A DNA stretch of 64,000 nucleotides, taken from the IMG/VR virus record IMGVR_UViG_3300036832_001426; one strand, 5' to 3'. The translations under genes and the position numbers were made by a program. Below are positions 20,121 to 38,713 of the stretch, in pieces (the stretch's first letter is position 1; each line of letters opens with the position of its first letter). The notes under the pieces were generated by a model, which worked only from the letters and a program-made list of their open reading frames with translations, had not been told where the DNA came from and ran no database searches. Source of the DNA: an uncultured virus (IMG/VR IMGVR_UViG_3300036832_001426) (taxonomy: Duplodnaviria > Heunggongvirae > Uroviricota > Caudoviricetes).

Positions 20121-20348
20121 ATGGCGATTCTCTCTGAGTCCGCCAAGAAAGCGGTGCCGAAGTCAGAACGCGGTGTGCCCGGCAAATCCGGCACGGGCAG
20201 TTATCCCATGCCGAATGCGCGTCACGCGGCGGCAGCTGTCGGCCTCGCCGCGATGCACCATGGGCCCGCGTTCGCCGCGAAGATCCGCGCCAAGGCCCAC
20301 AGGCTCGGCTACGGCGGCGGAAAGAAAAATCCGCTCTACGGAGGCTAG
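20121..20348 (+). CDS. Small basic protein ending KKNPLYGG
   Basis: GAGGAGG RBS; YPMPNARHAAAA motif. Confidence 0.75.
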   Translation: MAILSESAKKAVPKSERGVPGKSGTGSYPMPNARHAAAAVGLAAMHHGPAFAAKIRAKAHRLGYGGGKKNPLYGG

Positions 20349-20350
20349 CG

Positions 20351-20980
20351 ATGGCATGGAAGAACCGCGATCACATGATGGCTGGCGTACGCGCTGCACA
20401 CGCTTCGCCCTCGACTCCGGCACACCTTCGTCCGCATCTTGCTCGTCGGCTTCAAGGAGGCAACAACATGAATCAAATCCCACCTCGCAAAACCGTCGTC
20501 GGCACGCTCGGGCGTGCGCCGATCAAAACCATCGCACGGCGTCCCGGCACGACTCCCATGAAAACACTTGTGGGCCCGACTGCGCGGCCCCCAATCAAGA
20601 CGATGGTGGGTCGCACAGCTGCGCCTCCGCCGAAGGTGATCGCGCCGCCACTGGGAGCGCCGCCGCGTAAGACCACGCCGGGCAATCTGGGCGTCGGCGG
20701 GATCCAGCCGCTGGGCACGGGCTTTGATGTCGGGCCCAACGCCGCCATAAATCCGAACCGCTTCGCGGCGCGCATGGGAAACAGCGATGGCAACTTGGGC
20801 CGCAGTGCTGCACCGATGCCGCGCCCAGCCGGAGGGCCACCGAATCCCGTGCTTGAGAACACTGCCTCGTCTGGCGATGACCAGATCGTCGGTGGTGGCA
20901 TGGGGCCGACGGCGAAAACGATGGGACGCGCTCCGGGCCGTGGGCGCTCGCGTCGACCGAACATGTTTTACGGCGGTTGA
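20351..20980 (+). CDS. Basic Pro/Gly-rich disordered protein ending RPNMFYGG
   Basis: GGAGG RBS; repeated P[IM]KT[VILM] units. Confidence 0.7.
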   Translation: MAWKNRDHMMAGVRAAHASPSTPAHLRPHLARRLQGGNNMNQIPPRKTVVGTLGRAPIKTIARRPGTTPMKTLVGPTARPPIKTMVGRTAAPPPKVIAPPLGAPPRKTTPGNLGVGGIQPLGTGFDVGPNAAINPNRFAARMGNSDGNLGRSAAPMPRPAGGPPNPVLENTASSGDDQIVGGGMGPTAKTMGRAPGRGRSRRPNMFYGG

Positions 20981-20983
20981 GTC

Positions 20984-21184
20984 ATGCCTTCAACCAGCAC
21001 CGCTCAAAGACGTGCGATGGCGATTGCCGAGCACCATCCTGATCAGTTGTACGGACGCAATCAGGGGCTGCTTCAGATGTCGCAGTCGCAGCTGCATGAT
21101 TTTGCCTCGACCAAAGAAAAGGGGCTTCCGCACTACGTGAAGAAGCCGAAGGCGAAGCGCAACAAGCAGTTCTATGGCGGATGA
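20984..21184 (+). CDS. DUF3008-like small basic protein ending RNKQFYGG
   Basis: MPSTSTAQRRAM..MSQSQLHDFASTKEKGLP. Confidence 0.75.
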   Translation: MPSTSTAQRRAMAIAEHHPDQLYGRNQGLLQMSQSQLHDFASTKEKGLPHYVKKPKAKRNKQFYGG

Positions 21185-21395
21185 GCGCGTCACGGCAAAA
21201 TCGGTCGACTACATGGAATTGCAGGGGGCACGCAAGGATGCCGACTGCGATCACGTCGCGGTGAAGGGCGGAGTCAGTTCGCGGCTGGGTTGCTGCAATG
21301 ACTTCCGCCTCGATCCCGACGAGGCGCGGGAGTTTCGCTGCGGCACCTGTCAGCACCTCGTCGAGAGCAAGGGCAACAATTTTTATGGCGGATGA
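21174..21395 (+). CDS. Cys-rich small protein ending KGNNFYGG
   Basis: C..GCCN..CGTC; overlaps both neighbours. Confidence 0.7.
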   Translation: MADERVTAKSVDYMELQGARKDADCDHVAVKGGVSSRLGCCNDFRLDPDEAREFRCGTCQHLVESKGNNFYGG

Positions 21396-22434
21396 TCTGG
21401 TCGCACATCCTTACACCGGGATGACCTCATGGAAAAACCAGCACGGGATCACCATCCTCCGGCTGCACTACAGTGCTGACGAAGAGAAGGGCGGGGGCGC
21501 GACCACCTACGTGCCGGAGATCAACAAGCATCTCTCGCCGTGGGCGCTCAATGCTTACGGTCGGATGACCGATCCCACGCTCTACCTGAAAGAGTATGAG
21601 ATCGACGCCGAGGCCACGCTCGGTGCGCTGCTGTTCCAGTTCAATGAGGCGATCTCGGTCGAGAAGCTGCGCGAAATCCCGCCGGAGTGGACGCGGCGCA
21701 TGTCGGTCGATCCGCATCCCGGCATCCCGCACGCTTTTCTCTGGTCCGCGACCGATCCATGGGGAGATCGCTGGTACTACCGCGAGCTGTGGCCGTCGAA
21801 AGTTTGTTACGAGTGGAAGGGTGGGTTGCTGCATGGCAGGCCGGGCCCCTGTCCGCAGGACGAGCGCGGCCCCAACATCCGCGAGTACGTGCAGGCGATC
21901 AAGTATCTGGAATCGGGCGACAACCCGGAGAACCGATTGAACGGGCGCATCTTCGAAGAAGAAATCTTCGCTCGCGTAATCGACTACGCGGCCCGCGCTT
22001 TCGGCAAGGGGACCAACGACGATCAGGCGCAGGAAAATTATCAGCAGCGCTACGAGAAGCACCTGCTCGATCTCGGAGTGGGCCGCCCGTTCTTTGATGA
22101 CGCGAAAAAAGACCGACAGGTCGGCGTCGAGCTGGTGAACGAAGGCTTCAAGCTCATCGAGCGCATGGGCAACAACGGCGAGTATTACAAGACCAGCCGC
22201 ATCCACATCATCGGCGAGCGCTGCCCTGAATTGGTTCACGAACTGAAAACCAACCGCCGCCAGATGCTCTCGCCGCTGCAGGTCGAGCGGCAGGATCCCA
22301 CGGGAAAGCCCGTGAAGGTCCGCACCCACATGACCGACAACCTGCGCTACATCGAGATGTCGAACCCGATCTTCATCGAGCACCAATCAGAGGGCTACGG
22401 CTTCACACCAGTGGCTCGGGGATTTTCCTACTGA
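21385..22434 (+). CDS. terL: Terminase large subunit, RNase H-fold nuclease half
   Basis: LRLHYSAD, KEYEID, MSVDPHP (catalytic Asp), YYREL, CPELVHEL, HMTDNLRY; directly upstream of portal. Confidence 0.85.
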   Translation: MADDLVAHPYTGMTSWKNQHGITILRLHYSADEEKGGGATTYVPEINKHLSPWALNAYGRMTDPTLYLKEYEIDAEATLGALLFQFNEAISVEKLREIPPEWTRRMSVDPHPGIPHAFLWSATDPWGDRWYYRELWPSKVCYEWKGGLLHGRPGPCPQDERGPNIREYVQAIKYLESGDNPENRLNGRIFEEEIFARVIDYAARAFGKGTNDDQAQENYQQRYEKHLLDLGVGRPFFDDAKKDRQVGVELVNEGFKLIERMGNNGEYYKTSRIHIIGERCPELVHELKTNRRQMLSPLQVERQDPTGKPVKVRTHMTDNLRYIEMSNPIFIEHQSEGYGFTPVARGFSY

Positions 22435-25187
22435 TGCCCGCCAATATTCTTCCGAGACCTGAACTCGCGAACGAGCACAGCATCGTCACCCACATCATCG
22501 AGCGGCGCAACGAGAGCCGCAAGTGGATGCGGAAGAACATGCACGATGAGATGACGGAAGTGTGGCGCGCCATCAAGGTTCGCACCGCTCCCATCTTCAA
22601 GAAGGATCGCGCCGGAGTCGACACCCAGCATGAGGACAAATCGCGCACCAACGTCGCGATGCCCGACCTGAATATCATCTACCGCCGCAACGCGGCACGC
22701 ATGACGGCGAATCCCTATCGGCTGGAGTACACCGGAGGCGATCCGCAGGTCGCCGATATGCTCTCGGGGCTTTCCATGCAGCAGTTCGCCCGCTCCAATG
22801 AAGCTTTCCACGACGTGCGCTGCGTGCTGGCGTCAGAAGCCTTCGGCTGGGGCTATACCAAGCTGTTCTGGGATCGTCTGGTGCGGACGATGAAATTCCG
22901 CAAAGCGATCATGAAGGGCGAGAAGGTCGTGTTCCGCGACCGCGCCGCCATCATGCGCTATCAGGGCGCAGACGAGAACGAGATCGAGGGCGCAGTCAAG
23001 CAGCTCGGCAATGACGTAAACGACAACGAGATCATGGACTTCATGGCGAAGTCAGGCACCGAGATCTCCGTGCCGACCGAGCTGAAGCAGTACGAGGGCC
23101 CGATAGTGAAGTGGATCTTCAACGGCGATCTCTTCATCGAGCCCAACTGCGCGACGCTGGAAAGATCGAGCTTCGCCATCGAGCAGTTCACCGAGAACGA
23201 TCTCTGGATCGAGAAGATGTCGAAGCTCACCTACGAGGATCCCGACACCGGGCAGCTGCACTATGCCTTCGATCCCGATGCGCTGCAGGAACTGCTCGAC
23301 ACGGGCGGCGACGTCGACCAGCGCGAGAACGAGCCGGGTGATGATCTGCGCGACATGTTCAACGCGGCGATTGGCCGCGAGCGTGAGCAGGAATACTACC
23401 TGCCGAAGAACCTGCGCCCGCGCAAAAAGTTCAACCTGCTGGAGCAGCACTCGCAGGATGCCGAGGACGGAAAGTTCTACGTCTCATGGTGCTCGGAGCG
23501 CTATCGCGACAAGCTGCTCGGGCGCATGCCGTATCAGCACGATCTCTACGGCAAGTATTACTACACCGACATGACGCCGCTGCCCGATCTCATCGCCAGC
23601 TTCGGCGACTCGACGCCGCGCCTGCTGCGTCATCTCTACACCATGCACAACCTCACGGTCGCGCAAAACTTCGACTACATCACGAACCTGCTGAAGCCTT
23701 TCCTGCTGCGCCGCATGGGCGTCAACATCGAGCCCGAGGTGATCGTGCGGGGGCTCTTCCGCGAACTGCAGGTCGCGGATCTGAACGGCGTGAAGCCGCT
23801 GCAGGAGCCCCCACTGCCGAACGGAGCGTTCGAGCGCGAAGCGCAGATCATGCGAATGATGTCGATGGCCGAGCCTTCACTCACCTCGACCGAATCCGGC
23901 ACCTCAGCCAATCCGCAGGCAGGCAAGACCGCCACCACCGCACTGCTCGCTTCGAAGGCTGCCGACGCTCTCACGCAATTCAAGTTCGATGGGCGCAACC
24001 GCTACCTGCGCGAGCTGGGGATGAAGAAGCTCTGGATGAATCAGCAGGGGCGCGAGCAGAGCCAGCGCTGGGAGATCGAAGCCAGATATTGGAACACCAA
24101 CACGCGCAAGCGCGTCGAGTCCATCATCGAGGGACAGACTCCAGAGTGGGCGCTGCGCAGTGGTAGCGAAAAAGTTTATGCCGTGCAGCTCGACCCGATG
24201 GAGATCCAAGAAAACTTTGAAGTCGAGCCCGAAGCGGGATCGTACCTCGCGGTCGACGATGAGCTGCGTCAGCAGGCCGCAGAGAAGCTCACGCAGACTG
24301 CGATGGCGAATCCCGATATCGTCGACCGCCAGAAAGTAATTCGCTTCCAGATGTCAACGATCAAGGGCATCGGCGATCCTGATGCGTATCTCCTGCCGCC
24401 CAGCCCGCCGCAGCCACCGCCGCCGAAGGTCAACGTCAACATTCAGGTGCCCATCGACAAGGTGCCGGGCGATGTAGTGAACCAGCTGCTGCCGCTGATT
24501 GGCCTGCAGCCTTCGCCGACGCTCGAACACAAGGACATGGCCGACGCGATGCAGAGAACTGCTGACTCCGGGCAGGCGCTGGGCGAGGCCGCCGATTCGC
24601 TGACCAGCCCGGGTGAGAGCGACCAGCAAGAGCACGAAATGGGCGCGGATCACGCGATGCAGGTCACGCAGATGGCGCATGAGCGGCACATACAGGACCG
24701 AGAGCACGCCCACGCCGCCAACCTGCAAGACGATCAGCACCTCACCGACGCCGTGATGGCGGGCGCGGATCAGGCGCACTCCATGCGTTCCGAGGCGCAG
24801 AAGCATGAGCAGGCGCTCGCTGAAGCCGCGCAGACTCACGGCCACAATCTGCGCGAGGCCGAACAAACTCATGCCCACGCGATGCGGCAGGGCGCACAGG
24901 CGCAGGCTTCGCAGGCGCTGACCAAGAGTGCAGACATCGCCTCGCGAGAGCGCCAGCAGGGTGCCGGGCTGAAATCACAGGAGCGCATCGCCAGCCAGCG
25001 CAACAAGTCGAACGGAAAACCGAACGGCAAGCCGAATGGCGGAGCGAAGCCGGAGCCGAAGGAGCCCATGGTCGTCCATCTGAAGATCGATCACGGCACC
25101 GAGGGTGGCCCACGCAAAAAGAAAACCATCAAGCTGATCCGGGGCGAGGACGGCTCGACCACGGGCGCTGAGATCAACGAAGAATGA
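22434..25187 (+). CDS. Portal protein with long His/Gln/Ala-rich C-terminal extension
   Basis: Position after terL; size; P22-like features (FGWGYTKLFWD, KTATTA, FEVEPEAGS). Confidence 0.8.
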   Translation: MPANILPRPELANEHSIVTHIIERRNESRKWMRKNMHDEMTEVWRAIKVRTAPIFKKDRAGVDTQHEDKSRTNVAMPDLNIIYRRNAARMTANPYRLEYTGGDPQVADMLSGLSMQQFARSNEAFHDVRCVLASEAFGWGYTKLFWDRLVRTMKFRKAIMKGEKVVFRDRAAIMRYQGADENEIEGAVKQLGNDVNDNEIMDFMAKSGTEISVPTELKQYEGPIVKWIFNGDLFIEPNCATLERSSFAIEQFTENDLWIEKMSKLTYEDPDTGQLHYAFDPDALQELLDTGGDVDQRENEPGDDLRDMFNAAIGREREQEYYLPKNLRPRKKFNLLEQHSQDAEDGKFYVSWCSERYRDKLLGRMPYQHDLYGKYYYTDMTPLPDLIASFGDSTPRLLRHLYTMHNLTVAQNFDYITNLLKPFLLRRMGVNIEPEVIVRGLFRELQVADLNGVKPLQEPPLPNGAFEREAQIMRMMSMAEPSLTSTESGTSANPQAGKTATTALLASKAADALTQFKFDGRNRYLRELGMKKLWMNQQGREQSQRWEIEARYWNTNTRKRVESIIEGQTPEWALRSGSEKVYAVQLDPMEIQENFEVEPEAGSYLAVDDELRQQAAEKLTQTAMANPDIVDRQKVIRFQMSTIKGIGDPDAYLLPPSPPQPPPPKVNVNIQVPIDKVPGDVVNQLLPLIGLQPSPTLEHKDMADAMQRTADSGQALGEAADSLTSPGESDQQEHEMGADHAMQVTQMAHERHIQDREHAHAANLQDDQHLTDAVMAGADQAHSMRSEAQKHEQALAEAAQTHGHNLREAEQTHAHAMRQGAQAQASQALTKSADIASRERQQGAGLKSQERIASQRNKSNGKPNGKPNGGAKPEPKEPMVVHLKIDHGTEGGPRKKKTIKLIRGEDGSTTGAEINEE

Positions 25188-25597
25188 TCGCCTCAGGGAT
25201 TGCAACCAGCTACAAGCGGGAGATTCTCGACGGCATCCACGATGCTGGTGACGAATACATGATCGCTCTCTTCAGCCGCGATGCGGACATCGGGCCGGAC
25301 ACCAAGAGCTACGCCGGGCAGGACGGCGAAGTGCGCGGCGCTGGCTATGTGGAGGGCGGGCAGCTGCTTAAAGGGCGCTCCTCAGGGACAGCGGGCACGA
25401 CAGCCTACGTGACATTTTCAAACCCGCGCTGGTCTGGCGCATCGTTCAGTGCTCGCGGTGCGCTGATCTACAACGCGAGCAAGGCAGACCGCGCAGTCGC
25501 GGTGATCAACTTCGGGCAAGACTTCACCTGCACCAGCGGCGAGTTCGCCGTCAGCCTTCCGGCTGCAGGCAAGGACGCAATCGTGGTGGTGGCATAA
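25184..25597 (+). CDS. Virion structural protein
   Basis: SYKREILDGIH..IALF..EVRGAGY..ARGALIYN pattern seen in phage structural proteins. Confidence 0.65.
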   Translation: MIASGIATSYKREILDGIHDAGDEYMIALFSRDADIGPDTKSYAGQDGEVRGAGYVEGGQLLKGRSSGTAGTTAYVTFSNPRWSGASFSARGALIYNASKADRAVAVINFGQDFTCTSGEFAVSLPAAGKDAIVVVA

Positions 25598-26914: not shown

Positions 26915-26923
26915 GGGAATTTT

Positions 26924-27214
26924 ATGGGACTAGCGACAGGTTCTCTAAAGCTCAGTTTCATCGACACCGGAACTTTTATTGTCATGCCCCCTACAGCGGA
27001 TGTGCTGGGAACCCTGACCGCGCCCAGCGCGATCTCCACTGCAGCGAGCAAGGTCTATGCGGTGCCTTACATCAACACGCCGACAGTGATTCTCATCCCC
27101 ACCACGAATTGCGGGGGCTTCTATCTGTCGGCATCGAGCAACACGGGTTTCACCGTCACCTTCACCACTGCGGGAACGCACAAGTTCTCTTATCTGGTGA
27201 TCAGTAACGACTGA
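26924..27214 (+). CDS. Small beta-rich virion protein
   Basis: SNTGFTVTF..FSYLVI fibre-tip-like C-terminus. Confidence 0.6.
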   Translation: MGLATGSLKLSFIDTGTFIVMPPTADVLGTLTAPSAISTAASKVYAVPYINTPTVILIPTTNCGGFYLSASSNTGFTVTFTTAGTHKFSYLVISND

Positions 27215-27222
27215 AGGGAAAT

Positions 27223-27753
27223 GTGGCATGCGGAAATGGCTGGGGTCAGAGTCCGTGGGGCCTTTCGCCGTGGGGCACGGGACAGGGCTGGGGTACGGGA
27301 CCGTGGGGCGGCTCGCCATGGGGCGGTTGCTACGTCACAGCGCAGCCGCAGCCACCGCAGCAGACAGCAGGCTGGGAGCGGGTCTCCCGCTATTGGGAAG
27401 AACCGCGCCGCGAGCGGATTATCCGCAATGTCCTGTTCGCGGTCGAGGGCCTGCGTGCGCGGGTGCGCTGCGGCAAGCTGCAGATTCTCGCAGGGCGAGG
27501 CGCATGGCTCAAGCTGCGAGCGCGCCGGGCGCATTGCGAACTGGGTCTCGTCGAGGTTCACGCCGACAGTGCGCTGATCGCGGATTCATTGCCCGCGATC
27601 CTGTGCGAATGCGGAGAGGTGAAAGTTAATGCGAACGCCGCCATCAATGTTTTCCCTGAGCGCTCAAGCATGGCGAGCGGCAGCGTGAGCGTGCGTGCGA
27701 TTCGCAACCCGACTGACGAGGAACTTCTGATGATGCTCGCGGAGATCGCATGA
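27223..27753 (+). CDS. Hypothetical protein with N-terminal WG repeats
   Basis: GWGQSPWGLSPWGTGQGWGTGPWGGSPWGG. Confidence 0.6.
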   Translation: MACGNGWGQSPWGLSPWGTGQGWGTGPWGGSPWGGCYVTAQPQPPQQTAGWERVSRYWEEPRRERIIRNVLFAVEGLRARVRCGKLQILAGRGAWLKLRARRAHCELGLVEVHADSALIADSLPAILCECGEVKVNANAAINVFPERSSMASGSVSVRAIRNPTDEELLMMLAEIA

Positions 27754-28025: not shown

Positions 28026-28067
28026 TGCCCCCGTGGGAGCCAACCCCGCGAGGTTTGGAGGTAGCAA

Positions 28068-29411
28068 ATGGCTGACGAATCAACGGCAGCGGTGAGCCAA
28101 CCATCGACTGCTGGAGACGAACAAGCAGCAGGAACGGTGATGCAGGACTATTCATCGTTCCTCGGCCCGCCTTCTGCTGAGGCCGATCTCTCTGAGGAAG
28201 AACGTTCCGCACCCGATTCAGAGGAAGAAGCCGAAGGCGAACCGGAGCCGCAGCAGCAACCGCAGCGGCCCGGTGAAGGAGAGCCGGAAGAAGAAGAGGA
28301 AGCGCCCGCGCAACAGGCAACGCAAGAAGCTGAAGAAGAGGCTGAACAGCCACCCTCCGTGGAGGAACGCCTTAAAGACCTCACTCAGCGCGAAGCCGAT
28401 GACTATGCCCGACGCTATCCCAACGCGTGGAAGGCGTTGCTGAATCCTCAAACGCCTGAGGACATGAAGCACCTTCTACTCGACAAGATCGATGGCGATC
28501 ACGAAATTCAACGCCGGATCGCCCAAGAACAGCAGGCGCTCGAAGAGGAGCCAACCCTCGAATACGAACAGGAGCAGCCTGAGCAGCAAGTGCAACCACA
28601 GGACGCCGCCGAACAACGCACGGCGTACTACAGCCAGATCGACAACATGGTGCAAGCCAGTTTCGATCCGCAGTTCGTCAAGGAATTTGGAGACTCACTG
28701 CTGCGCGCTTTCAACGTGAACATGAAAGCGCTCGACGACCCGAATGTGACGCCGGAAGACAAGGCGATCCTGAAGGGGCTCGCTGACAGTGCGCAGAAGG
28801 AAGCTCCAGTGATTGCCCGGTTCATGGTGGATGCAGTGTCGACCACGGTGCCTCAAATTCTGCGCCCGGTGCTGGAAGCTCAGATGCCGGGATTCGTGGA
28901 CATGTATGAGCGCCACATGTACGGCACGGCATGGGAAGGCATTCGTTCGCAGACCGACGAGCGCGGCCACCCTCTGTATCCGGGTCTCACGGCATGGCCT
29001 GCAATCTCCGGCACCTCCGAGGCGAGAGCCTTCGAGCAAAAGATGATGGAGGCAGCAGACCAGATTCCGGGCTTTGACGACATGGTCTTCCGAGACCAGC
29101 ACGGCAGAATCCTGCCACAGGCGCAGCAGGCGCAGTTGAAGTACACCCTGCTGGCGCGGCAGCTCTCCGGGCAGCGGATCAATCCGGCGGTGGTGGCACA
29201 AGCCGTTGAGACGGGGCGCAGACTCGAAAGCCGGGCGGGCACACGCCGTCAGGCTGCGCGAGTAACGGGAGCGGGACAGAGGACAGCCGGGCCTGCAGGC
29301 GGAGCGCAGGGTGAGGAAGACGACCCGATGATGGCCGCACTGGATCATGAGATCGCGAGACAGGAAGGCAACTATCGGCAGGTCGTCCGAGGCCGCACCA
29401 GCAGCCGCTGA
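28068..29411 (+). CDS. Capsid scaffolding protein
   Basis: Acidic, E/Q-rich, helical; immediately upstream of the capsid gene. Confidence 0.7.
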   Translation: MADESTAAVSQPSTAGDEQAAGTVMQDYSSFLGPPSAEADLSEEERSAPDSEEEAEGEPEPQQQPQRPGEGEPEEEEEAPAQQATQEAEEEAEQPPSVEERLKDLTQREADDYARRYPNAWKALLNPQTPEDMKHLLLDKIDGDHEIQRRIAQEQQALEEEPTLEYEQEQPEQQVQPQDAAEQRTAYYSQIDNMVQASFDPQFVKEFGDSLLRAFNVNMKALDDPNVTPEDKAILKGLADSAQKEAPVIARFMVDAVSTTVPQILRPVLEAQMPGFVDMYERHMYGTAWEGIRSQTDERGHPLYPGLTAWPAISGTSEARAFEQKMMEAADQIPGFDDMVFRDQHGRILPQAQQAQLKYTLLARQLSGQRINPAVVAQAVETGRRLESRAGTRRQAARVTGAGQRTAGPAGGAQGEEDDPMMAALDHEIARQEGNYRQVVRGRTSSR

Positions 29412-29436: not shown

Positions 29437-30627
29437 GTGGCCGTTCGCAGCATTTCTACCTTCAATTCGTTTGTGACCGAGACGTCGAACGTGCGCGACG
29501 TTTCGACTCGCTTGCTCAACCTTGAGCCGGATCGCACACCGCTCTATGTTCTGACCAATAACTCGAAGCGCAAAGTCAGCGTGTTCTCTCCGCGCATCGA
29601 GTTCTTCGAAGACGCCGATCTTGTCATGCTGGGTGCATCGACCGCCGCGCTGGTGGCCGGAGCAACCGCGACCACCCTCACCGTTGCCGACGCTACCATC
29701 TTCGGCGTTGGCGATGTGGTCGCTGTCCAGAAGCAGGCAGAAAGCACCTCGACCGTTGAGGAGCTGATCTATGTCACCAACGTTCCCAACAGCACCACCG
29801 TCGTCGCGACCCGGGCTTTTGCCGGGACACCGATTGACGTCATCAGCTCGACCGCCACGCTGAAAATTCTCGGCGTGTGTCAGTCGGAAGTTGGAACCAT
29901 TCAGGCTCCGCGTACACCCGTGAAGGCTCCCAAGACCAGCGGTGCGCAGATCTTTGAATGGCCGATGCAAATCTCGCGCACTGCGGCAGCCACCAAGATT
30001 TATGGTGACCGCCCAGAGCGTGCTCGCATTCAGTGGCTCGGAATGCGTCGTCAGAAACTGGAGATCGAGAACGCTGGCCTGTTCGGCAGCTACTCGGAGA
30101 CCTTGGCCGGGACCGCATCGATGTACACCTCGATGGGCGTGCGCTCGATCATCTCCAGCTTCATCACCGATGCAGGCGGCACCACCACGCCGACCACACT
30201 CAAGGTCTTCCTTGACTGGTCGCGCATGGCGTTCCGCTATGGCTCGCCGGAGAAGCTGCTCATGGCCGCGCCGCTTGTGAAAGAGGCGATGGATTACTGG
30301 GCCGCAGGCAAGCAGTTCGTGCGGGCGGAGGACAAAGTGTTCGGCGTCTCGCTGAAGCGCTTCGTCACTTCGAACGGCACATGGCTCATCGCCAACAACT
30401 ACAACATGGATGCGGGTGTCGCGGACGAGGCGCTGGGTATCGACCTGCCCTCGGTCGAGTACTGCCCGCTCGTCAACAACGGGCAGAACCTCGATACGCG
30501 TCTCTACCCTGATTACGATCCCACCAACCCGAAGCTGCTGAAGGATCTGATCCTCACGCAGGCGGGCTGGAGAATCTGGCATCAGGCGCGGCACGCGAGG
30601 ATCTACGACTTCACCGCATTCGCCTGA
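29437..30627 (+). CDS. Major capsid protein (DUF5309/SU10-like, with inserted beta domain)
   Basis: RDVS...EPDRTPL, EFFED, QIF..ISRT, KLEIENAGLFG, MGVRS; followed by a terminator. Confidence 0.85.
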   Translation: MAVRSISTFNSFVTETSNVRDVSTRLLNLEPDRTPLYVLTNNSKRKVSVFSPRIEFFEDADLVMLGASTAALVAGATATTLTVADATIFGVGDVVAVQKQAESTSTVEELIYVTNVPNSTTVVATRAFAGTPIDVISSTATLKILGVCQSEVGTIQAPRTPVKAPKTSGAQIFEWPMQISRTAAATKIYGDRPERARIQWLGMRRQKLEIENAGLFGSYSETLAGTASMYTSMGVRSIISSFITDAGGTTTPTTLKVFLDWSRMAFRYGSPEKLLMAAPLVKEAMDYWAAGKQFVRAEDKVFGVSLKRFVTSNGTWLIANNYNMDAGVADEALGIDLPSVEYCPLVNNGQNLDTRLYPDYDPTNPKLLKDLILTQAGWRIWHQARHARIYDFTAFA

Positions 30628-30647: not shown

Positions 30648-30689
30648 GGGGCGCGATCTTACTGAACTAGGGTCGCGCCCCGATTTTTT
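30648..30689 (+). terminator. Rho-independent terminator after the capsid gene
   Basis: GGGGCGCGA..TCGCGCCCC stem followed by a T-run. Confidence 0.75.
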
Positions 30690-30703
30690 GGGAGACCAAA
30701 TTT

Positions 30704-31225: not shown

Positions 31226-31628
31226 CTGCGGGCAGTCGGCGACCCGACGAAGAGTCACATTCGACGACAAGGGGAGTGTGGTGCGAGAGCGGTGCTCGCA
31301 CTGCGCTCCCGAAGATTTTGCGGAGCCGTTCCGCGATCCATCCGACCAGAAAGTTTACTCCGGGCCCGAAGCGTTCCCCCATCTCTACAAGCGCGACCGC
31401 AATGGCGTTCTGCAGGCCAAGGATGAACTGCTCGCCGACACCGCCGAGCTGTGGGACGGCGGGCCGACTGAGCGTGCGCGCCGACTCAAGCAGCAGACGC
31501 GTCGCACCGAAGCGATGACGCCGGAAGAGATCGCGCAGGCACGCAAGTGGGGCGAGCAGGTGCTGGGCCCGGCGTGGCGCAAGGGAGGGACAGCTGGAGT
31601 CGTGGCTGCTCTGCATGACAGTGAATGA
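31206..31628 (+). CDS. Zn-ribbon hypothetical protein
   Basis: CGNC...CSHC. Confidence 0.6.
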   Translation: MLRACGNCGQSATRRRVTFDDKGSVVRERCSHCAPEDFAEPFRDPSDQKVYSGPEAFPHLYKRDRNGVLQAKDELLADTAELWDGGPTERARRLKQQTRRTEAMTPEEIAQARKWGEQVLGPAWRKGGTAGVVAALHDSE

Positions 31629-32613
31629 CGATCTGAGCCTTTTTAAACAGGAAGCGGAGCGCGTGGCGGCCCTGAATGCTCTCGACCTCGAAGAGGGCAA
31701 GCGCCGTGTGCGCTCGCTGGCGAAGACGCCGGAAGGCCGCGAGGCGCTGCGGCAGGAACTCGGCTACAACTTTTTGTTTGCGGATGAGGCGCTGAAGGAC
31801 GGCAGGCCGCTGGTGAGCTTGCTGGTTCCGACGCGCAACGCGCCTGCGCCGGAAACTACGAAGGCAGTCGACGCGATCATTCGCGATTCGCGGCCTTCGT
31901 GCATTCTCACTCCCCAGCCCGGCATCTCGATGAGTGTCGTGCACTGGTCGCGCAATGAACTGCTCGTCCGGCTGCGCAAGAGCGGACAGCCTGCCGACTT
32001 CGTCCTCTTCATGGACGACGACATGGATCCACCGAAAGACGCGTTGGTGAAATTACTCAAGCACGATGTCGACATCGTCGCCGGGGCATGCACCGTGCGC
32101 AAGGATCCCCCGCTGCCCAACTTCCGAACGTGGAACCCCGAGAACATGGAGTTTCGCACGGCATGGGACTGGACCACGGTCGACGGTACGTACATGGGCG
32201 ACGGCCTCGTCGAGGTCGGTGGCGTGGGCGCGGCCTTCATGCTGGTGAAGACCACGGTGCTCGACAAGCTTGCCGAGTATTACCTCTCTTGCCGCTTCGA
32301 GCGCGAGCACATGGGGATGGATGCTTTCGTCGCACGGCGCGTCGAAGCGGGCCGACGAAAACACGCGAAAGAGACAGGCAACGACTGGTGGTTTCAATTC
32401 CTGCCGCACCCGCATGGCGATGGCGAGTGGGGCGAGGATCTCTCGTTCTGCTTCAAGGCGCGGGAGTGTGGCTACAAAATTTTCATCGATAGCAGCGTGC
32501 TTCCCGGGCACATGGGCTCTTACTCCTACAAGATCACCGACTATCTCAGCTATCAGGCCGAGCAGATCGCGCTCGATCAGGCGCGGCGGCAGCGTGCGGA
32601 GGTGGCACAATGA
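31615..32613 (+). CDS. GT-A fold (GT2-like) glycosyltransferase
   Basis: VSLLVPT, SRNEL, VLFMDDDM (DxD), GAAFMLV, GEDLSFC, GH. Confidence 0.8.
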   Translation: MTVNDDLSLFKQEAERVAALNALDLEEGKRRVRSLAKTPEGREALRQELGYNFLFADEALKDGRPLVSLLVPTRNAPAPETTKAVDAIIRDSRPSCILTPQPGISMSVVHWSRNELLVRLRKSGQPADFVLFMDDDMDPPKDALVKLLKHDVDIVAGACTVRKDPPLPNFRTWNPENMEFRTAWDWTTVDGTYMGDGLVEVGGVGAAFMLVKTTVLDKLAEYYLSCRFEREHMGMDAFVARRVEAGRRKHAKETGNDWWFQFLPHPHGDGEWGEDLSFCFKARECGYKIFIDSSVLPGHMGSYSYKITDYLSYQAEQIALDQARRQRAEVAQ

Positions 32614-33380
32614 GCACTCCATTCATCACTCCGCCCCAGCTGGGCGGCTGGACGACCAGCGCGTTGATTGAACTCGCTGACCGCCGCACCGAGCGGCGCG
32701 GCTCAAAGACGCTCGACCTCGACGCCGAGTTCGCCATGGCGCTGCAGCATCTCTGCATGGAGAAGCGCTGGTTCTGGCGGCGCAAGCTGGTGGTCTTCCC
32801 GCTGGTGATAGGAACGTGGCAGTACGACCTCTCCGCCGTGGGAACCCTGCTGCTGCCGGGGCCGAATGCGAAAGACATTCACCAGTTCGTCAAGCACGGC
32901 GTGCGCTACTACCCGAGCAGCAGTACCGATGCCTCGTCGGAAATCACGCCTTTATTCGAGCGCGAGCAGCAGGCGCTCGCGATGTATCAGAACGCCTACA
33001 ACCCTCAGCAAAAACCACCGCGCCAATACTTCATGAATCCCTTCATGGTGCTCAACCTTACGCCCGTGCCCGATCAGGCGTACCCGGTGAGCCTCGACTA
33101 CTGGGCTTATCCGACAAGAGAAGTGGGCGAGCAGATCCCGCTGGTGCCCGGCTACATGCATCACGTCCTGCTGAAAAAACTGGAAGCACAAATTTTCCGC
33201 TACACCCTCGGTGAAGGCGCGGCGAAATATCAGGCAGCGATGGGCGAGTACGCGGCGCTGGTTGCGCAGTACTCCGGCACCGATGGCATGGTGCCGGGCG
33301 AGCACAACGACTGGTCGGCGGATGACGATTACGAGTCCACCTACGGGAACGCTTCGAACGCCGTGCAAAGCACAAGCTGA
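32610..33380 (+). CDS. Head-tail adaptor / tail tubular protein A-like
   Basis: W.W motif, YDL, L.PVPDQAY; precedes the nozzle-like gene. Confidence 0.65.
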   Translation: MSTPFITPPQLGGWTTSALIELADRRTERRGSKTLDLDAEFAMALQHLCMEKRWFWRRKLVVFPLVIGTWQYDLSAVGTLLLPGPNAKDIHQFVKHGVRYYPSSSTDASSEITPLFEREQQALAMYQNAYNPQQKPPRQYFMNPFMVLNLTPVPDQAYPVSLDYWAYPTREVGEQIPLVPGYMHHVLLKKLEAQIFRYTLGEGAAKYQAAMGEYAALVAQYSGTDGMVPGEHNDWSADDDYESTYGNASNAVQSTS

Positions 33381-36300
33381 TGCCCCCTCTCAAGGCACTC
33401 GAACAATCCACCTTCGGCGGAGTGGATTCACGCTCCAACCCGGTCGTGATGCCGCAGAATCGTTTTCTGCTGTCCACGAACTTTGTGCCGCGACCGGACG
33501 GGCATATCGAGCTGCGCCCGGGATACGTGCAGCAGGTGATTGGCGCGGGCATGACCCCGGGCCCCGGCGCTGGGGCGATCCACTCGATGTGTCCGTACAC
33601 GGTCGCCTATCACGGGCCGCTGACGGCGGGAACTGTGGGCAATCCGAACAACCTGCCTTTTGTGAATGGCGGCGAGTGCATTTTCTTCTGGGTCGGAACC
33701 ACTCCCTACCTCCGCCTGCTCGACGGCAGCACCTGCCCCACACACAACCCTGTGGTGCGCGGCAGGGCGATTGCGTCGAGCGAGCACTGGCAATACGCGC
33801 TCGGCAAAGACGGCTATCTGTACATGCACAACGGTACAGATAAGAAGTTCTTCGATGGCGTGTACCTGCGCGACATCGGGCTGCCGATTCTTTCGCAGAC
33901 GCAGCTCTCTGGGATCTCGGTCGCCGAAGGCACGGCTGCACCGTTGACCTCAGATGTCGATAACGTGACGTTCAGTCTGGTGGCTGCGAATCCTCCCTAC
34001 GCCCCGCCCACCAAGGGCAACGTCATCTCCGGCTACATGTACATGGCGTACTTCAACAAGAGCAACGACGTGCTGGCCGCATCGCCCGAGCCGCTGGGCA
34101 ATACGACGTTCCCGAACAGCAGTGGATCGACCACAAATTTCCTGCAGGTCAACAACCTGACACTGCCGACGGATCCGAACACTGTGGTCCTGCTCTATTA
34201 CCCATCAGGGCAGGCGCTCGCGACTTTGGAGTCGGGCACGGTCTGCAATTTTTATCCGCACGATCACTCTTACAACTCCGCTTTCGAGTACCAGAACGTC
34301 GCCGACGTTGTGAGCGTTGGTCCCACGCTGCCGGGCTCGCCATCGGCGAGCTTCACGCTCTCTGACAATCAGGGCCTGCTCTTCAATCCCGGCGACGGGC
34401 AGGCGTTCCCCGGCTGGACGGGCGACACCAACGGCCACATTTATCCCATGGAAGTCGCGGGCGTGAACTCCGCAGGCGGATGGGATCACACCACGCAGGT
34501 GATCTGGAGCGGAGCGGGCCCGGGTGGAACTGGCGAGTGGACGATGACCGTGGCAGGCAGCATCTCGATCCCCGCGCCGGGTGACTACACTTTTATTTTC
34601 GTTCACGATGATGGCGCATTCATCGGCATCGGCGGCGGAGCGAGCTACGTCTCCGGCTTCCTCGATCCCGGCTACCAGACCCTCAGCGCGGATCACGCCT
34701 ACCCGGTGATGTGCAACCGTCAGACCGCCGGGCGAAACATCGACAGCTTCACCGTGCACTTCTCGGCGGCTGGCACTTTCCCCTTCGAGATCGACTATTG
34801 CAACTGGCAAACCGCGCAGACCTGCTGCCTGTACAACGGCGACGGCTCGGTAATCATGCCGCCTCTGGTGAGCGTCGACGCGCCGACCGTGACCGCTCCG
34901 TCTTTTCTTACGACCGAAGCCACCGTGGGCAATGCTTCGCTGGCCAAGAGCAGCTCGACGAAAGTGGAAGCCACTACATCCAGCGCCCATGGACTCTCGA
35001 CTGGCGACGTGATCGTGCTTTCGCTGGGCACTCCGCCGACCTACAGTCCGGTGACGTGGACGAGCAATGGGCCCTTCACGGTGAGCGTGATCGATGCGAC
35101 TCACTTCACGTTCAACGTGGATGACGCGACACCCTACGACGCCGCGACTCCCATCGCGATCCAGCGGCTGGTGCAGGTGACGACGACCAGCTACAAGGTG
35201 AACACCGACAACACGGGATGGCCGACCACTACTCGCAACGATGTCGACACGAATCAGAGCGGACAAATTCTGCTGCCCTCGCCGCTCGATGCGGACACTT
35301 TGCTTCCAGCCTCATCCATCGGCGGTGCTCAACCCGGCTACCAGTTCTACGCTGCGGTCTACGATCCGCTGACCGGGCATGTGGGCAATCGCGTTCCTAT
35401 CGGGCGACGCCTCGCCCCCACGACCGATTGCACGGTCAACATCTCCGGGCTGCCTGATCTCAGCGTGGCCTTTGCCGGAGAGCCGATCATCGAGTGGGGC
35501 AACGGCAGCGAGCTGCAAGGCGTCGTTCCCTTCGTCAACAAAAATAAACAGGGAACGGTGAAGGGCTACGCGGCATCGCCGGGTGACTCGGAGTGGTGCC
35601 TGCTGATTGGCAGAACAGGCGATGGCGGCGAAGTCCCCTACGCCTGCGTCGACAGGCTTGCGAACTGGATCTACACCAACCCGGGAGACTCGACGGTCAC
35701 CGTCAGCAACGGCAAGGTCGATGAGAATTCTGAGCTGCCCGTCGACAACTACATTCCTCCCGCCTTCGCGTGTTTCTGGCGTGAAGGAGATCGCATGTGC
35801 GGATCGCTGCGGAATCAGCCCTTCGTCTACCGCTGCGGCTCAGAGATCGATTCCACGACTGGCATCTTCGTCGGTCTGCCTGCGCAGTCGTGGAGCCCGG
35901 CACGCCTTGAAACTTTCCCGACAGCTGCGGGGATTTTCGGAGGCTACGGGTACATGCAGGAAAGCTGGGTCTTCACCATGAGCGATCTCGCTCAACTGTC
36001 GGAGCTGACGGGCGAAGCGGTCTGGAACGGGCCCTACAATCCTTTCGGCATCATCGGCCCGAAAGCTTTCGACAAGGGCTGGAACTCGCTGCCCTTCTGG
36101 GTCTCGAAGGACAAGGAACTGTGCACGATGATCCCGGGGTCGAACGGGCCCATGGTCATCTCCGGCGAGTACGAGGCTTCGCTGCTCGCCCAAATCGGCG
36201 ACGACATCTACAACCCGAGCACGCACCTGATCACGACTCCTCGCGCTTCCCGCACCGAGCTGATTTATTTTTACGATCCACTGAACAAGGTGGAAGTGTT

Positions 36301-36931
36301 GCGCATCAAGTGCATCGACGCGAACGGCGTTCCGTTCACTGTCATCCACGACTTCAACCTGCGCGACGACCAGAGTCCCTACGGGCAAGCCTACGTGCAT
36401 GCCTATGTCGACGCGCTGGCCAATGACTTCACCACTTGCCGCATCCTCGATGTGAATCGTCACGCCCGCATCTGGGCTGGGGGCAGCGACGGGCGCTTCT
36501 ACGCCTTCTATCTGGGCGGGCAGGACAATGGCGTCGACTTCCCGGCGAGCGCCATCGCGCTGCGCTATCTCGGAGGCGAGCGCACCGGGCTGCGCACCAT
36601 CGAATGGTACGGCGATGAAAAGCTCAAGTGGTATCTGCTCGATCACATGGTGGGTGATGACATTTTGCCTGACCAGACGCAGTGGGTCGATGTAACAGAC
36701 GAGTTCCGTCCATTTCCCGGCGATGAGCACAGCGGTCACTACATCGCCGACCTGCAGCGACCGGAGATGATCCATTGCTATCTGTGGATCTACCTGATGG
36801 GGCACGCCGCCGATGCGCCGATTCCGGCGGATCCGATGGCCTTGAGTAGTCCCATTCCGCACACGCCGCTGGAAACCTACGGCAGGCTGTACATGGCCGC
36901 GCCGATCATCGCGGGATCGAGGGGACGATGA
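33380..36931 (+). CDS. Tail nozzle / tubular protein B-like, with inserted PA14-like and other beta domains
   Basis: N-terminal FGGVD..N..G.IELRPG; PA14-like YTFIFVHDDGAFIGI..FPFEIDY at about 34540-34850; AHGLSTGD..FTVSVIDATHFTF. Confidence 0.7.
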   Translation: MPPLKALEQSTFGGVDSRSNPVVMPQNRFLLSTNFVPRPDGHIELRPGYVQQVIGAGMTPGPGAGAIHSMCPYTVAYHGPLTAGTVGNPNNLPFVNGGECIFFWVGTTPYLRLLDGSTCPTHNPVVRGRAIASSEHWQYALGKDGYLYMHNGTDKKFFDGVYLRDIGLPILSQTQLSGISVAEGTAAPLTSDVDNVTFSLVAANPPYAPPTKGNVISGYMYMAYFNKSNDVLAASPEPLGNTTFPNSSGSTTNFLQVNNLTLPTDPNTVVLLYYPSGQALATLESGTVCNFYPHDHSYNSAFEYQNVADVVSVGPTLPGSPSASFTLSDNQGLLFNPGDGQAFPGWTGDTNGHIYPMEVAGVNSAGGWDHTTQVIWSGAGPGGTGEWTMTVAGSISIPAPGDYTFIFVHDDGAFIGIGGGASYVSGFLDPGYQTLSADHAYPVMCNRQTAGRNIDSFTVHFSAAGTFPFEIDYCNWQTAQTCCLYNGDGSVIMPPLVSVDAPTVTAPSFLTTEATVGNASLAKSSSTKVEATTSSAHGLSTGDVIVLSLGTPPTYSPVTWTSNGPFTVSVIDATHFTFNVDDATPYDAATPIAIQRLVQVTTTSYKVNTDNTGWPTTTRNDVDTNQSGQILLPSPLDADTLLPASSIGGAQPGYQFYAAVYDPLTGHVGNRVPIGRRLAPTTDCTVNISGLPDLSVAFAGEPIIEWGNGSELQGVVPFVNKNKQGTVKGYAASPGDSEWCLLIGRTGDGGEVPYACVDRLANWIYTNPGDSTVTVSNGKVDENSELPVDNYIPPAFACFWREGDRMCGSLRNQPFVYRCGSEIDSTTGIFVGLPAQSWSPARLETFPTAAGIFGGYGYMQESWVFTMSDLAQLSELTGEAVWNGPYNPFGIIGPKAFDKGWNSLPFWVSKDKELCTMIPGSNGPMVISGEYEASLLAQIGDDIYNPSTHLITTPRASRTELIYFYDPLNKVEVLRIKCIDANGVPFTVIHDFNLRDDQSPYGQAYVHAYVDALANDFTTCRILDVNRHARIWAGGSDGRFYAFYLGGQDNGVDFPASAIALRYLGGERTGLRTIEWYGDEKLKWYLLDHMVGDDILPDQTQWVDVTDEFRPFPGDEHSGHYIADLQRPEMIHCYLWIYLMGHAADAPIPADPMALSSPIPHTPLETYGRLYMAAPIIAGSRGR

Positions 36932-37416
36932 AGAGCATCCTGTCGCCGCAAATCGGGCCCAACCGCGAGCAACACCTGCAGGCCCGGGTGCATGCCATCA
37001 CCGGAAATCGAACTCACGGCACGCAGCGCCTTCCGGCTGCGCCCCGTGGACTGGTGGCACAGCGAGCGCAAAACGGGGCGCTGCTCACATGGCATCTGCC
37101 TACGCGCTACGGCGACGTGACGGGCTACCGCATTTACGTGGGCACCGAAAAAAATCTCGCCATTGAAGTTCGGGATCGCGGCACGCGCCAGATGCTGGTG
37201 CCGCTCGCGGCGGGAGACACGCCAGCGCAACAAAATATTTTCGTCAGCGTGGTGAACGGATTCCGCGAGGGGCCGCGTCGGCAGATCCAGATCAAAGCGC
37301 TCGCGAGCACAGATCCGCCAGCGATTCCTCCGCCCCCGACCACTTACCTTGACGTGTTCTCGGGCGGTCTCGACAAAACCCAGAGCGGACGTCCCACTGG
37401 AAGAAAAGTTCCATGA
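36928..37416 (+). CDS. FN3-like virion protein
   Basis: PAAPRGL..LTW..VTGYRIY..VSVVNG.REG. Confidence 0.65.
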   Translation: MKSILSPQIGPNREQHLQARVHAITGNRTHGTQRLPAAPRGLVAQRAQNGALLTWHLPTRYGDVTGYRIYVGTEKNLAIEVRDRGTRQMLVPLAAGDTPAQQNIFVSVVNGFREGPRRQIQIKALASTDPPAIPPPPTTYLDVFSGGLDKTQSGRPTGRKVP

Positions 37417-37844
37417 AGGTTCAGGTGTTCCATTTGTTTTTTAAGCAGGGTCTGGAAGGAATGGTGCCGTCCGATCCGCAGCTCTACACGCTGGCCGACG
37501 ACTACGTGCAGGAAACCATGGCGCAGCCTCCCGACTTCAAGGCTTACAAAAATACTTGGGTGGCCTGCGAGGTCGATGCTTCCGGCACGCCTGTGCGCTG
37601 TGTCGGTGTGCTGTCGATGATGTTCCGGCCCGACTTCCCCATCTGCCGCTTCACCGACAACGCGGCGGTGGTGAAGCTGGTGCAGCGTGCGAACGATCAC
37701 CTGCACGACGTCTATGGATGGCGCGGTGGTTACGCGCTGGTGCACATCGCGAAAGAAGACGACCGACGGTGCACCGATTACGAGGAGTGGATGAAGGTCT
37801 TCGAGGTCGAGGACGCAGAGCGCTGGGCAATCAAGGTGCGGTGA
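37413..37844 (+). CDS. Hypothetical protein (position typical of podovirus GNAT-like assembly proteins)
   Basis: ORF between tail and ejection genes; fold assignment weak. Confidence 0.55.
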   Translation: MKVQVFHLFFKQGLEGMVPSDPQLYTLADDYVQETMAQPPDFKAYKNTWVACEVDASGTPVRCVGVLSMMFRPDFPICRFTDNAAVVKLVQRANDHLHDVYGWRGGYALVHIAKEDDRRCTDYEEWMKVFEVEDAERWAIKVR

Positions 37845-37854
37845 GGAGGTAGCT

Positions 37855-38418
37855 ATGGGCGGTCAGGGCGGAGTTACTGGCAGTCAAAAGAATCTGGCAG
37901 CCGGGCAAATGTCGGAAGCAGGGACAAGCTCGGCGGCGGATGCTGCATTTCAGAGTGCCATGGCGAACCGGATGGGCACCGGGCTCCAAAGTTTCTACGG
38001 CAATCGCATGAACAACGGCCTGCCCTTCTATCGCAATCTCACCGACTACGGTGGCGGCGCGGTGGCGCAGGCTTTCGCTCCGGCGCGGGCTGACATTTAT
38101 CGCCGTGCGAGTCAGTCGGCCTTTCTTCCCTCGGGCGCTCGCGATGCGCAACTGAACGATCTCGGAGCTGCGCAGGGGCGGGCCTTCGATTCGACGCTCA
38201 CGCAGGCCATGATGGCGAATGAAGCGGCGAAGCAGTACGGCGCTGGCGGGCAATCGCAGCAGGAGCAGCTCGCGGCGAATCGCGCCCTCGCCTACAAGGG
38301 CCTCGGCATGAACGCGGATCAATCAATTCTCAATGCGCAACAGAAGCCGAGCACGTGGGGCACGGTGGCTGGCGGAGTTCAGCAAGGTTTGAAGACGGCA
38401 GCACTGATGGCCGGATAA
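37855..38418 (+). CDS. Internal virion / ejection protein
   Basis: MGGQGG start; A/G/Q-rich; amphipathic C-terminus. Confidence 0.7.
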   Translation: MGGQGGVTGSQKNLAAGQMSEAGTSSAADAAFQSAMANRMGTGLQSFYGNRMNNGLPFYRNLTDYGGGAVAQAFAPARADIYRRASQSAFLPSGARDAQLNDLGAAQGRAFDSTLTQAMMANEAAKQYGAGGQSQQEQLAANRALAYKGLGMNADQSILNAQQKPSTWGTVAGGVQQGLKTAALMAG

Positions 38419-38431
38419 CTGGAGGTGTGTG

Positions 38432-38713
38432 ATGGGTGGAGCGATGAGCAAGTTCGGCAGTCAGCTCGCGAGCAATTTTCAGACGCCGCAAGGGACCACG
38501 CCCGGGTCAGTGTTGAAGGGCATCGGCGACACGATGGACATTTATCAGGCGCAGGGCAGAGGACAACCGGGACAGCAACAACCGGGACAGCAACAGGCCG
38601 CACCTCCCGCGCAGGCCGCGCCTGTCGCATTCAACACGCCCAATTTGCCTTACATGCCGCCGCCTGAGATGGAGAACCCTTACCTGCGGCGCAACGCAAT
38701 GTACGGAGGATGA
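38432..38713 (+). CDS. Small Q/P-rich internal virion protein ending RRNAMYGG
   Basis: GGAGG RBS; within the ejection-protein cluster. Confidence 0.7.
   Translation: MGGAMSKFGSQLASNFQTPQGTTPGSVLKGIGDTMDIYQAQGRGQPGQQQPGQQQAAPPAQAAPVAFNTPNLPYMPPPEMENPYLRRNAMYGG

What the first reader, a model, noticed from the sequence alone, without database searches (positions are those of the whole stretch)
20121..38713. Five unrelated late proteins share a C-terminal [KR]-x-N-x-[LFM]-Y-G-G tag
Seen: four consecutive ORFs end KKNPLYGG* (20348), RPNMFYGG* (20980), RNKQFYGG* (21184) and KGNNFYGG* (21395), and a fifth, 17 kb away among the ejection genes, ends RRNAMYGG* (38713). The Asn is shifted by one position in the third. 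The protein bodies are unrelated (basic, Pro-rich, DUF3008-like, Cys-rich, Q-rich). The codons differ (TAC GGA GGC, TAC GGC GGT, TAT GGC GGA, TAC GGA GGA), which points to selection on the peptide. Known: free C-terminal Gly-Gly is the hallmark of ubiquitin/ThiS/MoaD activation, and T4 internal proteins use a short shared capsid-targeting sequence. Inference: an undescribed sorting tag that loads cargo into the prohead or ejectosome, or a handle for covalent conjugation. Caveat: in four of five cases the tag overlaps the next gene's GGAGG or ATG; the copy ending at 20980 overlaps neither.
Basis: partly seen in the sequence, partly recalled or inferred. Interest (0 to 1): 0.9.

Follow-up and report, generated by a model that had tools for sequence, protein, structure and literature searches.

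The report
Shared tail tag on phage cargo
A group of uncultured soil phages ends many unrelated small proteins, and one likely injected protein, with the same short peptide, which probably acts as a 'load me into the virus head' label read by the head-building scaffold protein; no experiment has shown this yet.

Summary
The five YGG ends are real and far beyond chance. Gly-Gly is a local variant: across 85 merged phage units (window plus relatives; two bacterial assemblies carrying relatives are Acidobacteriota) the tag is basic-x(2-3)-[FL]-[YF]-G-[E>G>D] near the stop. Only 23 of 148 tags end in GG, so ubiquitin-like conjugation fails. Selection is on the peptide: the DNA motif is in frame in 129 of 131 gene ends and uses all four Gly codons. 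Tags sit on 46 clusters of mostly small, basic, Pro/Gly/Ala-rich proteins between the halves of a split terminase, and on the second presumed ejection gene (15 of 15). The residue after Gly changes genome by genome and tracks one position of the presumed scaffold: Arg327 goes with acidic tags (20 of 20), other residues mostly do not (4 of 12); best of 2,475 columns, family-wise p 0.028, about 6 of 7 independent pairs. The window has Met327 and Gly tags. Best reading: a C-terminal procapsid-loading signal read by the scaffold, working like T4's capsid-targeting sequence. Binding and packaging are not shown; one subclade breaks the rule. The scan held no note of this tag, only other tags in other phages.

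The parts
20121..20348 (+). Tagged gene A, 75 aa, basic (net +10), DUF6582-like family; tag at 20322-20348
   Evidence: phrog_16160 E 4e-5; a relative hits DUF6582 below cut-off; 18 of 19 family members tagged
20351..20980 (+). Tagged gene B, 209 aa, Pro/Gly/Ala-rich and basic (net +23); tag at 20954-20980
   Evidence: start at 20351 supported by relatives that begin alike; 23 of 27 family members tagged
20984..21184 (+). Tagged gene C, 66 aa, basic, DUF3008-like; tag at 21158-21184
   Evidence: PF11450 E 3e-4, below cut-off; 17 of the 19 best-scoring homologues tagged (2 are the window's own sequence), 1 of the next 101
21174..21395 (+). Tagged gene D, 73 aa, five Cys, not basic; tag at 21369-21395, overlapping the start of the terminase C half
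   Evidence: 9 of 13 family members tagged
38432..38713 (+). Tagged gene E, 93 aa, Gln/Pro-rich, second gene of the presumed ejection cluster; tag at 38687-38713
   Evidence: the gene in this slot is tagged in 15 of 15 units that show one; ejection role inferred from position only
28068..29411 (+). Presumed scaffolding protein, 447 aa; candidate reader of the tag. Compact domain at residues 274-369 (28887-29174); covarying residue Met327 (29046-29048)
   Evidence: position before the capsid gene, acidic N-terminus, all-helical model with pLDDT about 95 over most of the domain; no family name; covariation
18644..19333 (+). Large terminase, N-terminal half, a separate gene
   Evidence: phrog_5989 E 4e-5; a relative E 5e-8
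21385..22434 (+). Large terminase, C-terminal half, a separate gene; the tagged cassette lies between the halves
   Evidence: relatives hit phrog_2 positions 423-595 of 807, E 4e-5 to 1e-4; no fused form among 45 units showing both halves
29437..30627 (+). Major capsid protein (rival reader)
   Evidence: PF17236 SU10_MCP E 1e-22; profile hit to PDB 9in6, major capsid of VP1, E 1e-21
22434..25187 (+). Presumed portal (rival reader)
   Evidence: position and size only; no family or PDB hit

Best explanation
The tag is a short C-terminal linear motif, basic-x(2-3)-[FL]-[YF]-G-X, that loads proteins into the procapsid. Shown: it is selected as peptide, is an add-on to unrelated and partly widespread small proteins, is almost confined to the cassette in and beside the split terminase and to one ejection-cluster gene, and its last variable residue changes in concert across the genes of a genome. 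Inferred: one phage-encoded reader binds all copies; the two aromatic residues and Gly dock on the compact domain (residues 274-369) of the scaffolding protein, the residue after Gly faces scaffold position 327 (Arg-Glu pair in most phages; Met with Gly in the window's lineage), and the basic run helps bind the acidic scaffold. Cargo co-assembles with the scaffold core and stays when the scaffold leaves at DNA packaging: the basic proteins as DNA-binding internal proteins, possibly ejected, and protein E as part of the ejection apparatus.
For: 149 motifs in the last 5 residues against 3-11 per 5-residue bin further in, 1,333 genes; frame 129:1:1; Gly codons 54/48/28/23. 99 of 256 genes between the terminase halves tagged, 9 of 803 elsewhere, 7 of these 9 being tag families next to the terminase. 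Ejection-slot gene tagged in 4 of 4 regions fetched afterwards. Tagged bodies: median net charge +0.11 per residue against 0.00, 1 of 148 with a membrane-like stretch against 101 of 871. The residue after Gly is shared within genomes across families (75 of 119 pairs, 43 expected, p 2e-4) while synonymous sites are not (p 0.12, 0.73, 0.053). Scaffold 327: first of 2,475 columns, family-wise p 0.028, 6.2 of 7 independent pairs the same way and none opposite, best of the 150 top features on the tree; tag level 47 of 54 acidic with Arg, 7 of 26 without. Precedent: T4 internal proteins are small, basic, carry a shared 10-residue signal and co-purify with scaffold gp22 (PMC9026906, passages); P22 scaffold is proposed to dock the ejection proteins (PMC12005531, passages).
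Against: No virion, binding or expression data. Scaffold, portal and ejection identities rest on position and composition, not homology. Position 327 was first noticed on partly the same data; two traits were scanned, and the second (Phe or Tyr before Gly) gave a capsid column at family-wise p 0.062, 4 of 6 pairs, so such scans can ring. One subclade (L057, L060, L061, L063, also G002) has no Arg327 yet mostly acidic tags. Arg is at 327 in only 20 of 126 wider scaffold-family representatives, whose tags are unknown. The ejection-slot tag never has an acidic residue after Gly (0 of 15), even in Arg327 phages.
Confidence: 0.55

Rival explanations
1. Still a head-loading tag, but read by the capsid protein or portal, possibly as a mimic of the scaffold's own tail.
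For: 18 of 126 wider scaffold representatives have [FLMI][FY]G in their last 25 residues, about 1.3 expected, mostly one subfamily with acidic context; capsid column 394 tracks the Phe/Tyr choice weakly (family-wise p 0.062); portal columns are runners-up for the acidic trait, 4-5 of 7 pairs; encapsulin cargo uses short C-terminal peptides with an HK97-fold shell (PMC11664910, passages).
Against: The scaffold tails of the window and its close relatives have no such motif although their tags are the most uniform; the scaffold-tail motif is preceded by acidic, the tag by basic residues, and none ends within 4 residues of the stop; no capsid column exceeds 3 of 6 pairs for the acidic trait among those printed.
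Confidence: 0.2
2. The tag is a C-terminal degradation or processing handle that removes these proteins, for example after ejection, or a docking site for another phage protein outside head assembly.
For: Strictly near-terminal position; T7 gp6.7 and gp7.3 are said to be degraded by cellular proteases after ejection (PMC11784390, passage); C-terminal degrons are common in bacteria (recalled).
Against: Genome-specific variants that track a phage protein fit a phage reader better than a host protease; 0 to 8 residues follow the Gly; no Peptidase_S78 gene in 5 related records.
Confidence: 0.13
3. The motif is kept at the nucleotide level as a ribosome-binding or coupling signal for the next gene, or spread by recombination among cassette genes.
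For: 58 of 148 tags lie over a GGAG/GAGG/AGGA core and 46 overlap an ATG; gene order in the cassette varies.
Against: 129 in frame against 1 and 1; third codon positions free; 23 of 148 have no such core, no ATG overlap and no nearby start; within-genome likeness is at amino-acid, not synonymous, sites.
Confidence: 0.03
4. The tag is a ubiquitin/ThiS- or Pup-like conjugation handle.
For: All five window copies end in Gly-Gly; 51 of 148 tags end in Gly-Glu, which recalls Pup's terminal Glu (Pup motif recalled).
Against: Only 23 of 148 end in GG; last residue and tail length vary; no ThiF, JAB or Pup ligase found (the two bacterial assemblies are incomplete).
Confidence: 0.03

Closest known systems
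Phage T4 capsid targeting sequence (CTS) of internal proteins IPI-IPIII (PMC9026906, passages read)
   Same: Short shared terminal peptide on unrelated, small, basic, poorly conserved late proteins; proposed partner is the scaffold core
   Different: C-terminal, not N-terminal; other sequence; no prohead protease found and no sign of removal; short-tailed-type phage; also on an ejection-cluster gene; here the partner residue is suggested by covariation
P22 scaffolding protein gp8 recruiting ejection proteins gp7/gp16/gp20 (PMC12005531, passages read)
   Same: Scaffold as docking site for internal proteins during procapsid assembly; acidic N-terminal region; similar gene order
   Different: No shared peptide among P22 ejection proteins appears in the passages read; no homology between the scaffolds detected
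Family 1 encapsulin targeting peptides (PMC11664910, passages read)
   Same: About 10-residue C-terminal peptide that loads different cargo into an HK97-fold shell during assembly
   Different: A phage head, not an encapsulin; cargo are mostly basic low-complexity proteins, not enzymes; evidence points to the scaffold rather than the shell
T7 core protein gp6.7 (PMC11784390, abstract and passages read)
   Same: Small internal, ejected protein encoded before the portal; its tail is basic-S-A-F-G-G-like, loosely kept in 4 of 7 homologues read; that part is unresolved in the cited structures
   Different: One protein, not a shared tag (gp7.3 lacks it); no second aromatic residue; no alignment with protein E. 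A resemblance only

Membership tests
Ubiquitin/ThiS/MoaD-type modifiers | Invariant free C-terminal Gly-Gly | tested here: not met
   23 of 148 tags end in GG; Glu follows the first Gly in 69 of 153
Ubiquitin/ThiS/MoaD-type modifiers | Beta-grasp body | tested here: inconclusive
   No such Pfam family on the five proteins; bodies unrelated and low in complexity; not folded here
Ubiquitin/ThiS/MoaD-type modifiers | E1/ThiF activating enzyme or JAB peptidase in the locus | tested here: not met
   0 of 5 related phage records, 3 complete; none among 92 window ORFs; about 8 kb of the window's 71,866-base contig is unseen; a host enzyme is not excluded
Pup/UBact | Terminal Gly-Gly-Glu/Gln and a Pup ligase | tested here: not met
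   Tag is aromatic-aromatic-Gly-X with X and tail length variable; PF03136 in 0 of 5 genomes or records, two being incomplete bacterial assemblies
T4 capsid targeting sequence | Short shared terminal peptide on unrelated small basic late proteins | tested here: met
T4 capsid targeting sequence | N-terminal position | tested here: not met
   Motif in the first 14 residues of 15 genes, near chance, against 149 in the last 5
T4 capsid targeting sequence | Removed by a prohead protease | tested here: inconclusive
   No Peptidase_S78 in 0 of 5 records; other protease families not searched one by one
T4 capsid targeting sequence | Affinity for the scaffold core | tested here: inconclusive
   Covariation with scaffold residue 327; no direct binding data
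T4 capsid targeting sequence | Sufficient to package a foreign protein | not testable with these tools
   needs a fusion experiment
Encapsulin targeting peptide (Family 1) | Short C-terminal peptide on diverse cargo | tested here: met
Encapsulin targeting peptide (Family 1) | Shell is an encapsulin, without a phage head module | tested here: not met
   SU10-type phage capsid protein with terminase genes
Encapsulin targeting peptide (Family 1) | Peptide binds the shell protein directly | not tested
   capsid model too poor (pLDDT 48); only weak covariation

The most novel reading that the evidence does not exclude
These phages have a two-part protein-import code: a small scaffold domain that is a dedicated peptide reader and a 6-8 residue C-terminal tag that can be added to any gene, with a single reader residue and a single tag residue switching together several times (7 changes of tag type on the tree). 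One uncut tag would load both a changing set of basic internal proteins and a core ejection protein, giving natural orthogonal tag-reader pairs and assigning DUF3008-, DUF6582- and DUF6496-like proteins to the inside of the virion.
Probability: 0.4. Interest if true: 0.82.

Novelty: new variant of a known kind. Interest (0 to 1): 0.7.

Why it matters
How short-tailed phages choose the proteins that go inside the head is open: for P22 the scaffold is implicated, but the passages read name no shared signal, and the one defined phage signal found in the searches, T4's, is N-terminal and cut off. Here both the signal and a candidate contact residue on its reader fall out of natural variation, so the question becomes testable with two or three recombinant proteins and a synthetic peptide, without culturing the phage. 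It would also give a role to several unnamed families of small basic phage proteins and a compact C-terminal tag for loading capsids.

Tried and rejected
Complex prediction of scaffold residues 254-384 with the last 32 residues of protein B: no verdict (scores 0.28, 0.33, 0.27; mark 0.32); it is neither for nor against. Sequencing runs: one DNA holder that may be the source, no RNA holder listed, so splicing across the terminase split and expression were not tested. No whole genome is held for the window. Capsid model unusable (pLDDT 48). Scaffold fold searches gave nothing clear; the 274-369 domain was barely tested and was not folded alone. No cultured phage matched the terminase C half or protein A; protein C matched only 201phi2-1 weakly. 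An independent set for the Arg327 rule was sought and not found: the scaffold scan returned contigs already in hand, 400 further genomes of the phylum had no match, and G002 belongs to the exception subclade. Rfam found only a tRNA, no intron. A 666-aa terminase C half is an intein-like insertion, not a fused terminase. The PCMT-like methyltransferase common in the cassette of distant relatives was rejected as reader because the window's subclade lacks it. Atlas search of B's N-terminus gave only scores under 0.8. Literature: nine full-text searches listed no paper on this tag, this clade or the three DUFs; I saw only listings for all but four papers, no supplements, and the library lacks most subscription journals. 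Rows dropped before counts: duplicates by last 30 residues (1,409 to 1,333); six near-duplicate units, six likely chance families and the ejection-slot families; L119 (scaffold misaligned).
Full report
Observation. The five C-termini are at the stated coordinates with the stated codons. The bodies do not align with each other once the tail is removed.

Setting. The window is a phage with an SU10-family capsid gene at 29437-30627. The large terminase is in two genes, 18644-19333 and 21385-22434, and four of the tagged genes fill the end of the 2-kb gap. Portal (22434-25187), scaffold (28068-29411) and the ejection cluster (37855-47370) are assigned by position, size and composition; none gave a naming family hit. 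No cultured phage matched the terminase C half. Two bacterial assemblies with relatives are Acidobacteriota (L056, L057); the window's own host is inferred from that.

Relatives. Scans with capsid and terminase queries gave 139 loci, merged with the window into 85 units and gene-called with a simple script checked on the window. Among 1,333 de-duplicated complete genes, 157 have [FLMI][FY]G within 10 residues of the stop (17 expected): 149 motifs in the last five residues, 3-11 in each further five-residue bin. After the Gly come Glu 69, Gly 28, Asp 20, stop 9 of 153. The three core positions are fixed by my definition; their enrichment and codon spread are not. 43 of 45 units showing both terminase halves carry a tag. 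A strict DNA pattern for one tag form hit 7 of the IMG/VR contigs, all already retrieved; in five whole records a looser pattern gave 12 hits in 3 records and none for the reversed control.

Peptide, not DNA. The DNA motif TTYTWYGG in the last 36 bases of genes is in frame 129 times and out of frame once in each other frame. Gly uses all four codons (54, 48, 28, 23). RBS overlap is common (58 of 148) but 23 tags have no RBS core, ATG overlap or nearby start.

What carries it. 46 clusters, 14 with three or more members; median 75 aa, rich in Lys, Arg, Pro, Gly and Ala, net charge +0.11 per residue, 1 of 148 membrane-like. 99 of 256 genes between the terminase halves are tagged, 9 of 803 elsewhere, 7 of them tag families just beside the terminase. 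The gene after the first presumed ejection gene is tagged in 10 units, one more found in another frame, and 4 of 4 regions fetched afterwards, although its body barely aligns between phages; L069 lacks that gene and any tag in 20.9 kb. The tag is an add-on: of 120 listed homologues of protein C (213 found), 18 carry it, 17 of them among the 19 best. Tagged bodies include DUF3008-, DUF6582- and DUF6496-like proteins.

A phage-encoded reader. Different families in one genome share the residue after Gly in 75 of 119 pairs (43 expected by within-family shuffling, p 2e-4, tree ignored), while synonymous sites do not. The window and L013 have Gly in every copy inside a clade that otherwise has mostly Glu. 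Comparing these groups showed scaffold residue 327. In a scan of 2,475 columns of 10 core proteins in 32 units, Arg at 327 ranked first: 20 of 20 Arg phages have mostly acidic tags, 4 of 12 others (Fisher 4.7e-5); family-wise permutation p 0.028; on a tree built without the scaffold, 7 independent pairs differing in tag type go the same way in 6.2 and never the other way (sign test p 0.03; the reverse comparison 5.3 of 7, p 0.06). It also leads the 150 best features on the tree, the next being a portal column at 5.0. Residue 327 lies on a helix of a compact, confidently modelled domain, residues 274-369. Against: the site was found post hoc; a second trait gave a capsid column at p 0.062; one subclade has acidic tags without Arg; the position is variable in the wider family (Arg 20 of 126); the ejection-slot tag is never acidic (0 of 15); no independent replication set could be found.

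Mechanism. Shown: peptide-level selection, carriers, genome-specific variants, covariation. Inferred: binding to the scaffold domain, co-assembly into the procapsid, retention after scaffold exit, and DNA-binding or ejection roles. I put head loading by any reader at about 0.75 and the scaffold as reader at 0.55. The main rival is a capsid or portal reader with the tag mimicking a scaffold tail: 18 of 126 wider scaffold representatives have the core motif in their last 25 residues, but the window's subclade does not. Conjugation fails on the variable end and on missing ThiF, JAB and Pup-ligase genes.

Known systems. It works like the T4 capsid targeting sequence: small basic internal proteins, a shared 10-residue signal, co-purification with scaffold gp22 (PMC9026906, passages), but is not a member: it is C-terminal and no prohead protease of family S78 was found. 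P22's scaffold is proposed to dock ejection proteins (PMC12005531, passages). Encapsulin cargo peptides share the C-terminal layout (PMC11664910, passages). T7 gp6.7, a core and ejected protein (PMC11784390, abstract and passages), has a loosely similar tail, a lead only. Nine literature searches listed no description of this tag; supplements were not read. The scan's notes hold other shared tags in other phage groups but none for this tag or scaffold.

Verdict. A real, clade-wide, apparently undescribed C-terminal tag with a specific and testable candidate reader; a new variant of capsid-targeting signals; interest 0.7.

Noticed in passing
window 18644-22434: Large terminase encoded as two genes with a variable cassette between them; in relatives the gap is 0.7-5.6 kb, adjacent in L109 and in reversed order in L132; no fused form among 45 units, no intron found by Rfam.
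   Followed up: partly
L069:3940-4518 and family F8: A protein-L-isoaspartate O-methyltransferase-like gene (PF01135), 31 genes, usually first after the terminase N half in distant relatives; absent from the window's subclade.
   Followed up: no
window 31615-32613: A glycosyltransferase-like gene between capsid and tail genes is in nearly every unit that reaches this region (36 genes); relatives add epimerase, UDP-sugar dehydrogenase and methyltransferase genes. Suggests virion glycosylation.
   Followed up: no
window 38432-38713 and the same slot in relatives: The ejection-slot tag never has an acidic residue after Gly (0 of 15), even in Arg327 phages: weaker binding or another site. Unexplained.
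   Followed up: partly
window 37855-38418 and relatives: The first presumed ejection protein ends in Phe in 7 distant units, but not in the window's subclade.
   Followed up: no
L098:1317-3317: Terminase C half with an intein-like insertion of about 300 residues near its end.
   Followed up: no
window 52271-54120: A tRNA gene next to an ORF with a weak integrase hit (E 1e-3, below cut-off).
   Followed up: no
window 17589-18246 and 19885-20109: Three small paralogous genes (one family, F14) on both sides of the terminase N half, untagged.
   Followed up: no
L058:565-831 (T7 gene 6.7): T7 gp6.7 and 3 of 6 homologues read end in a basic-A-[FL]-G motif that may be a loading signal of its own.
   Followed up: partly
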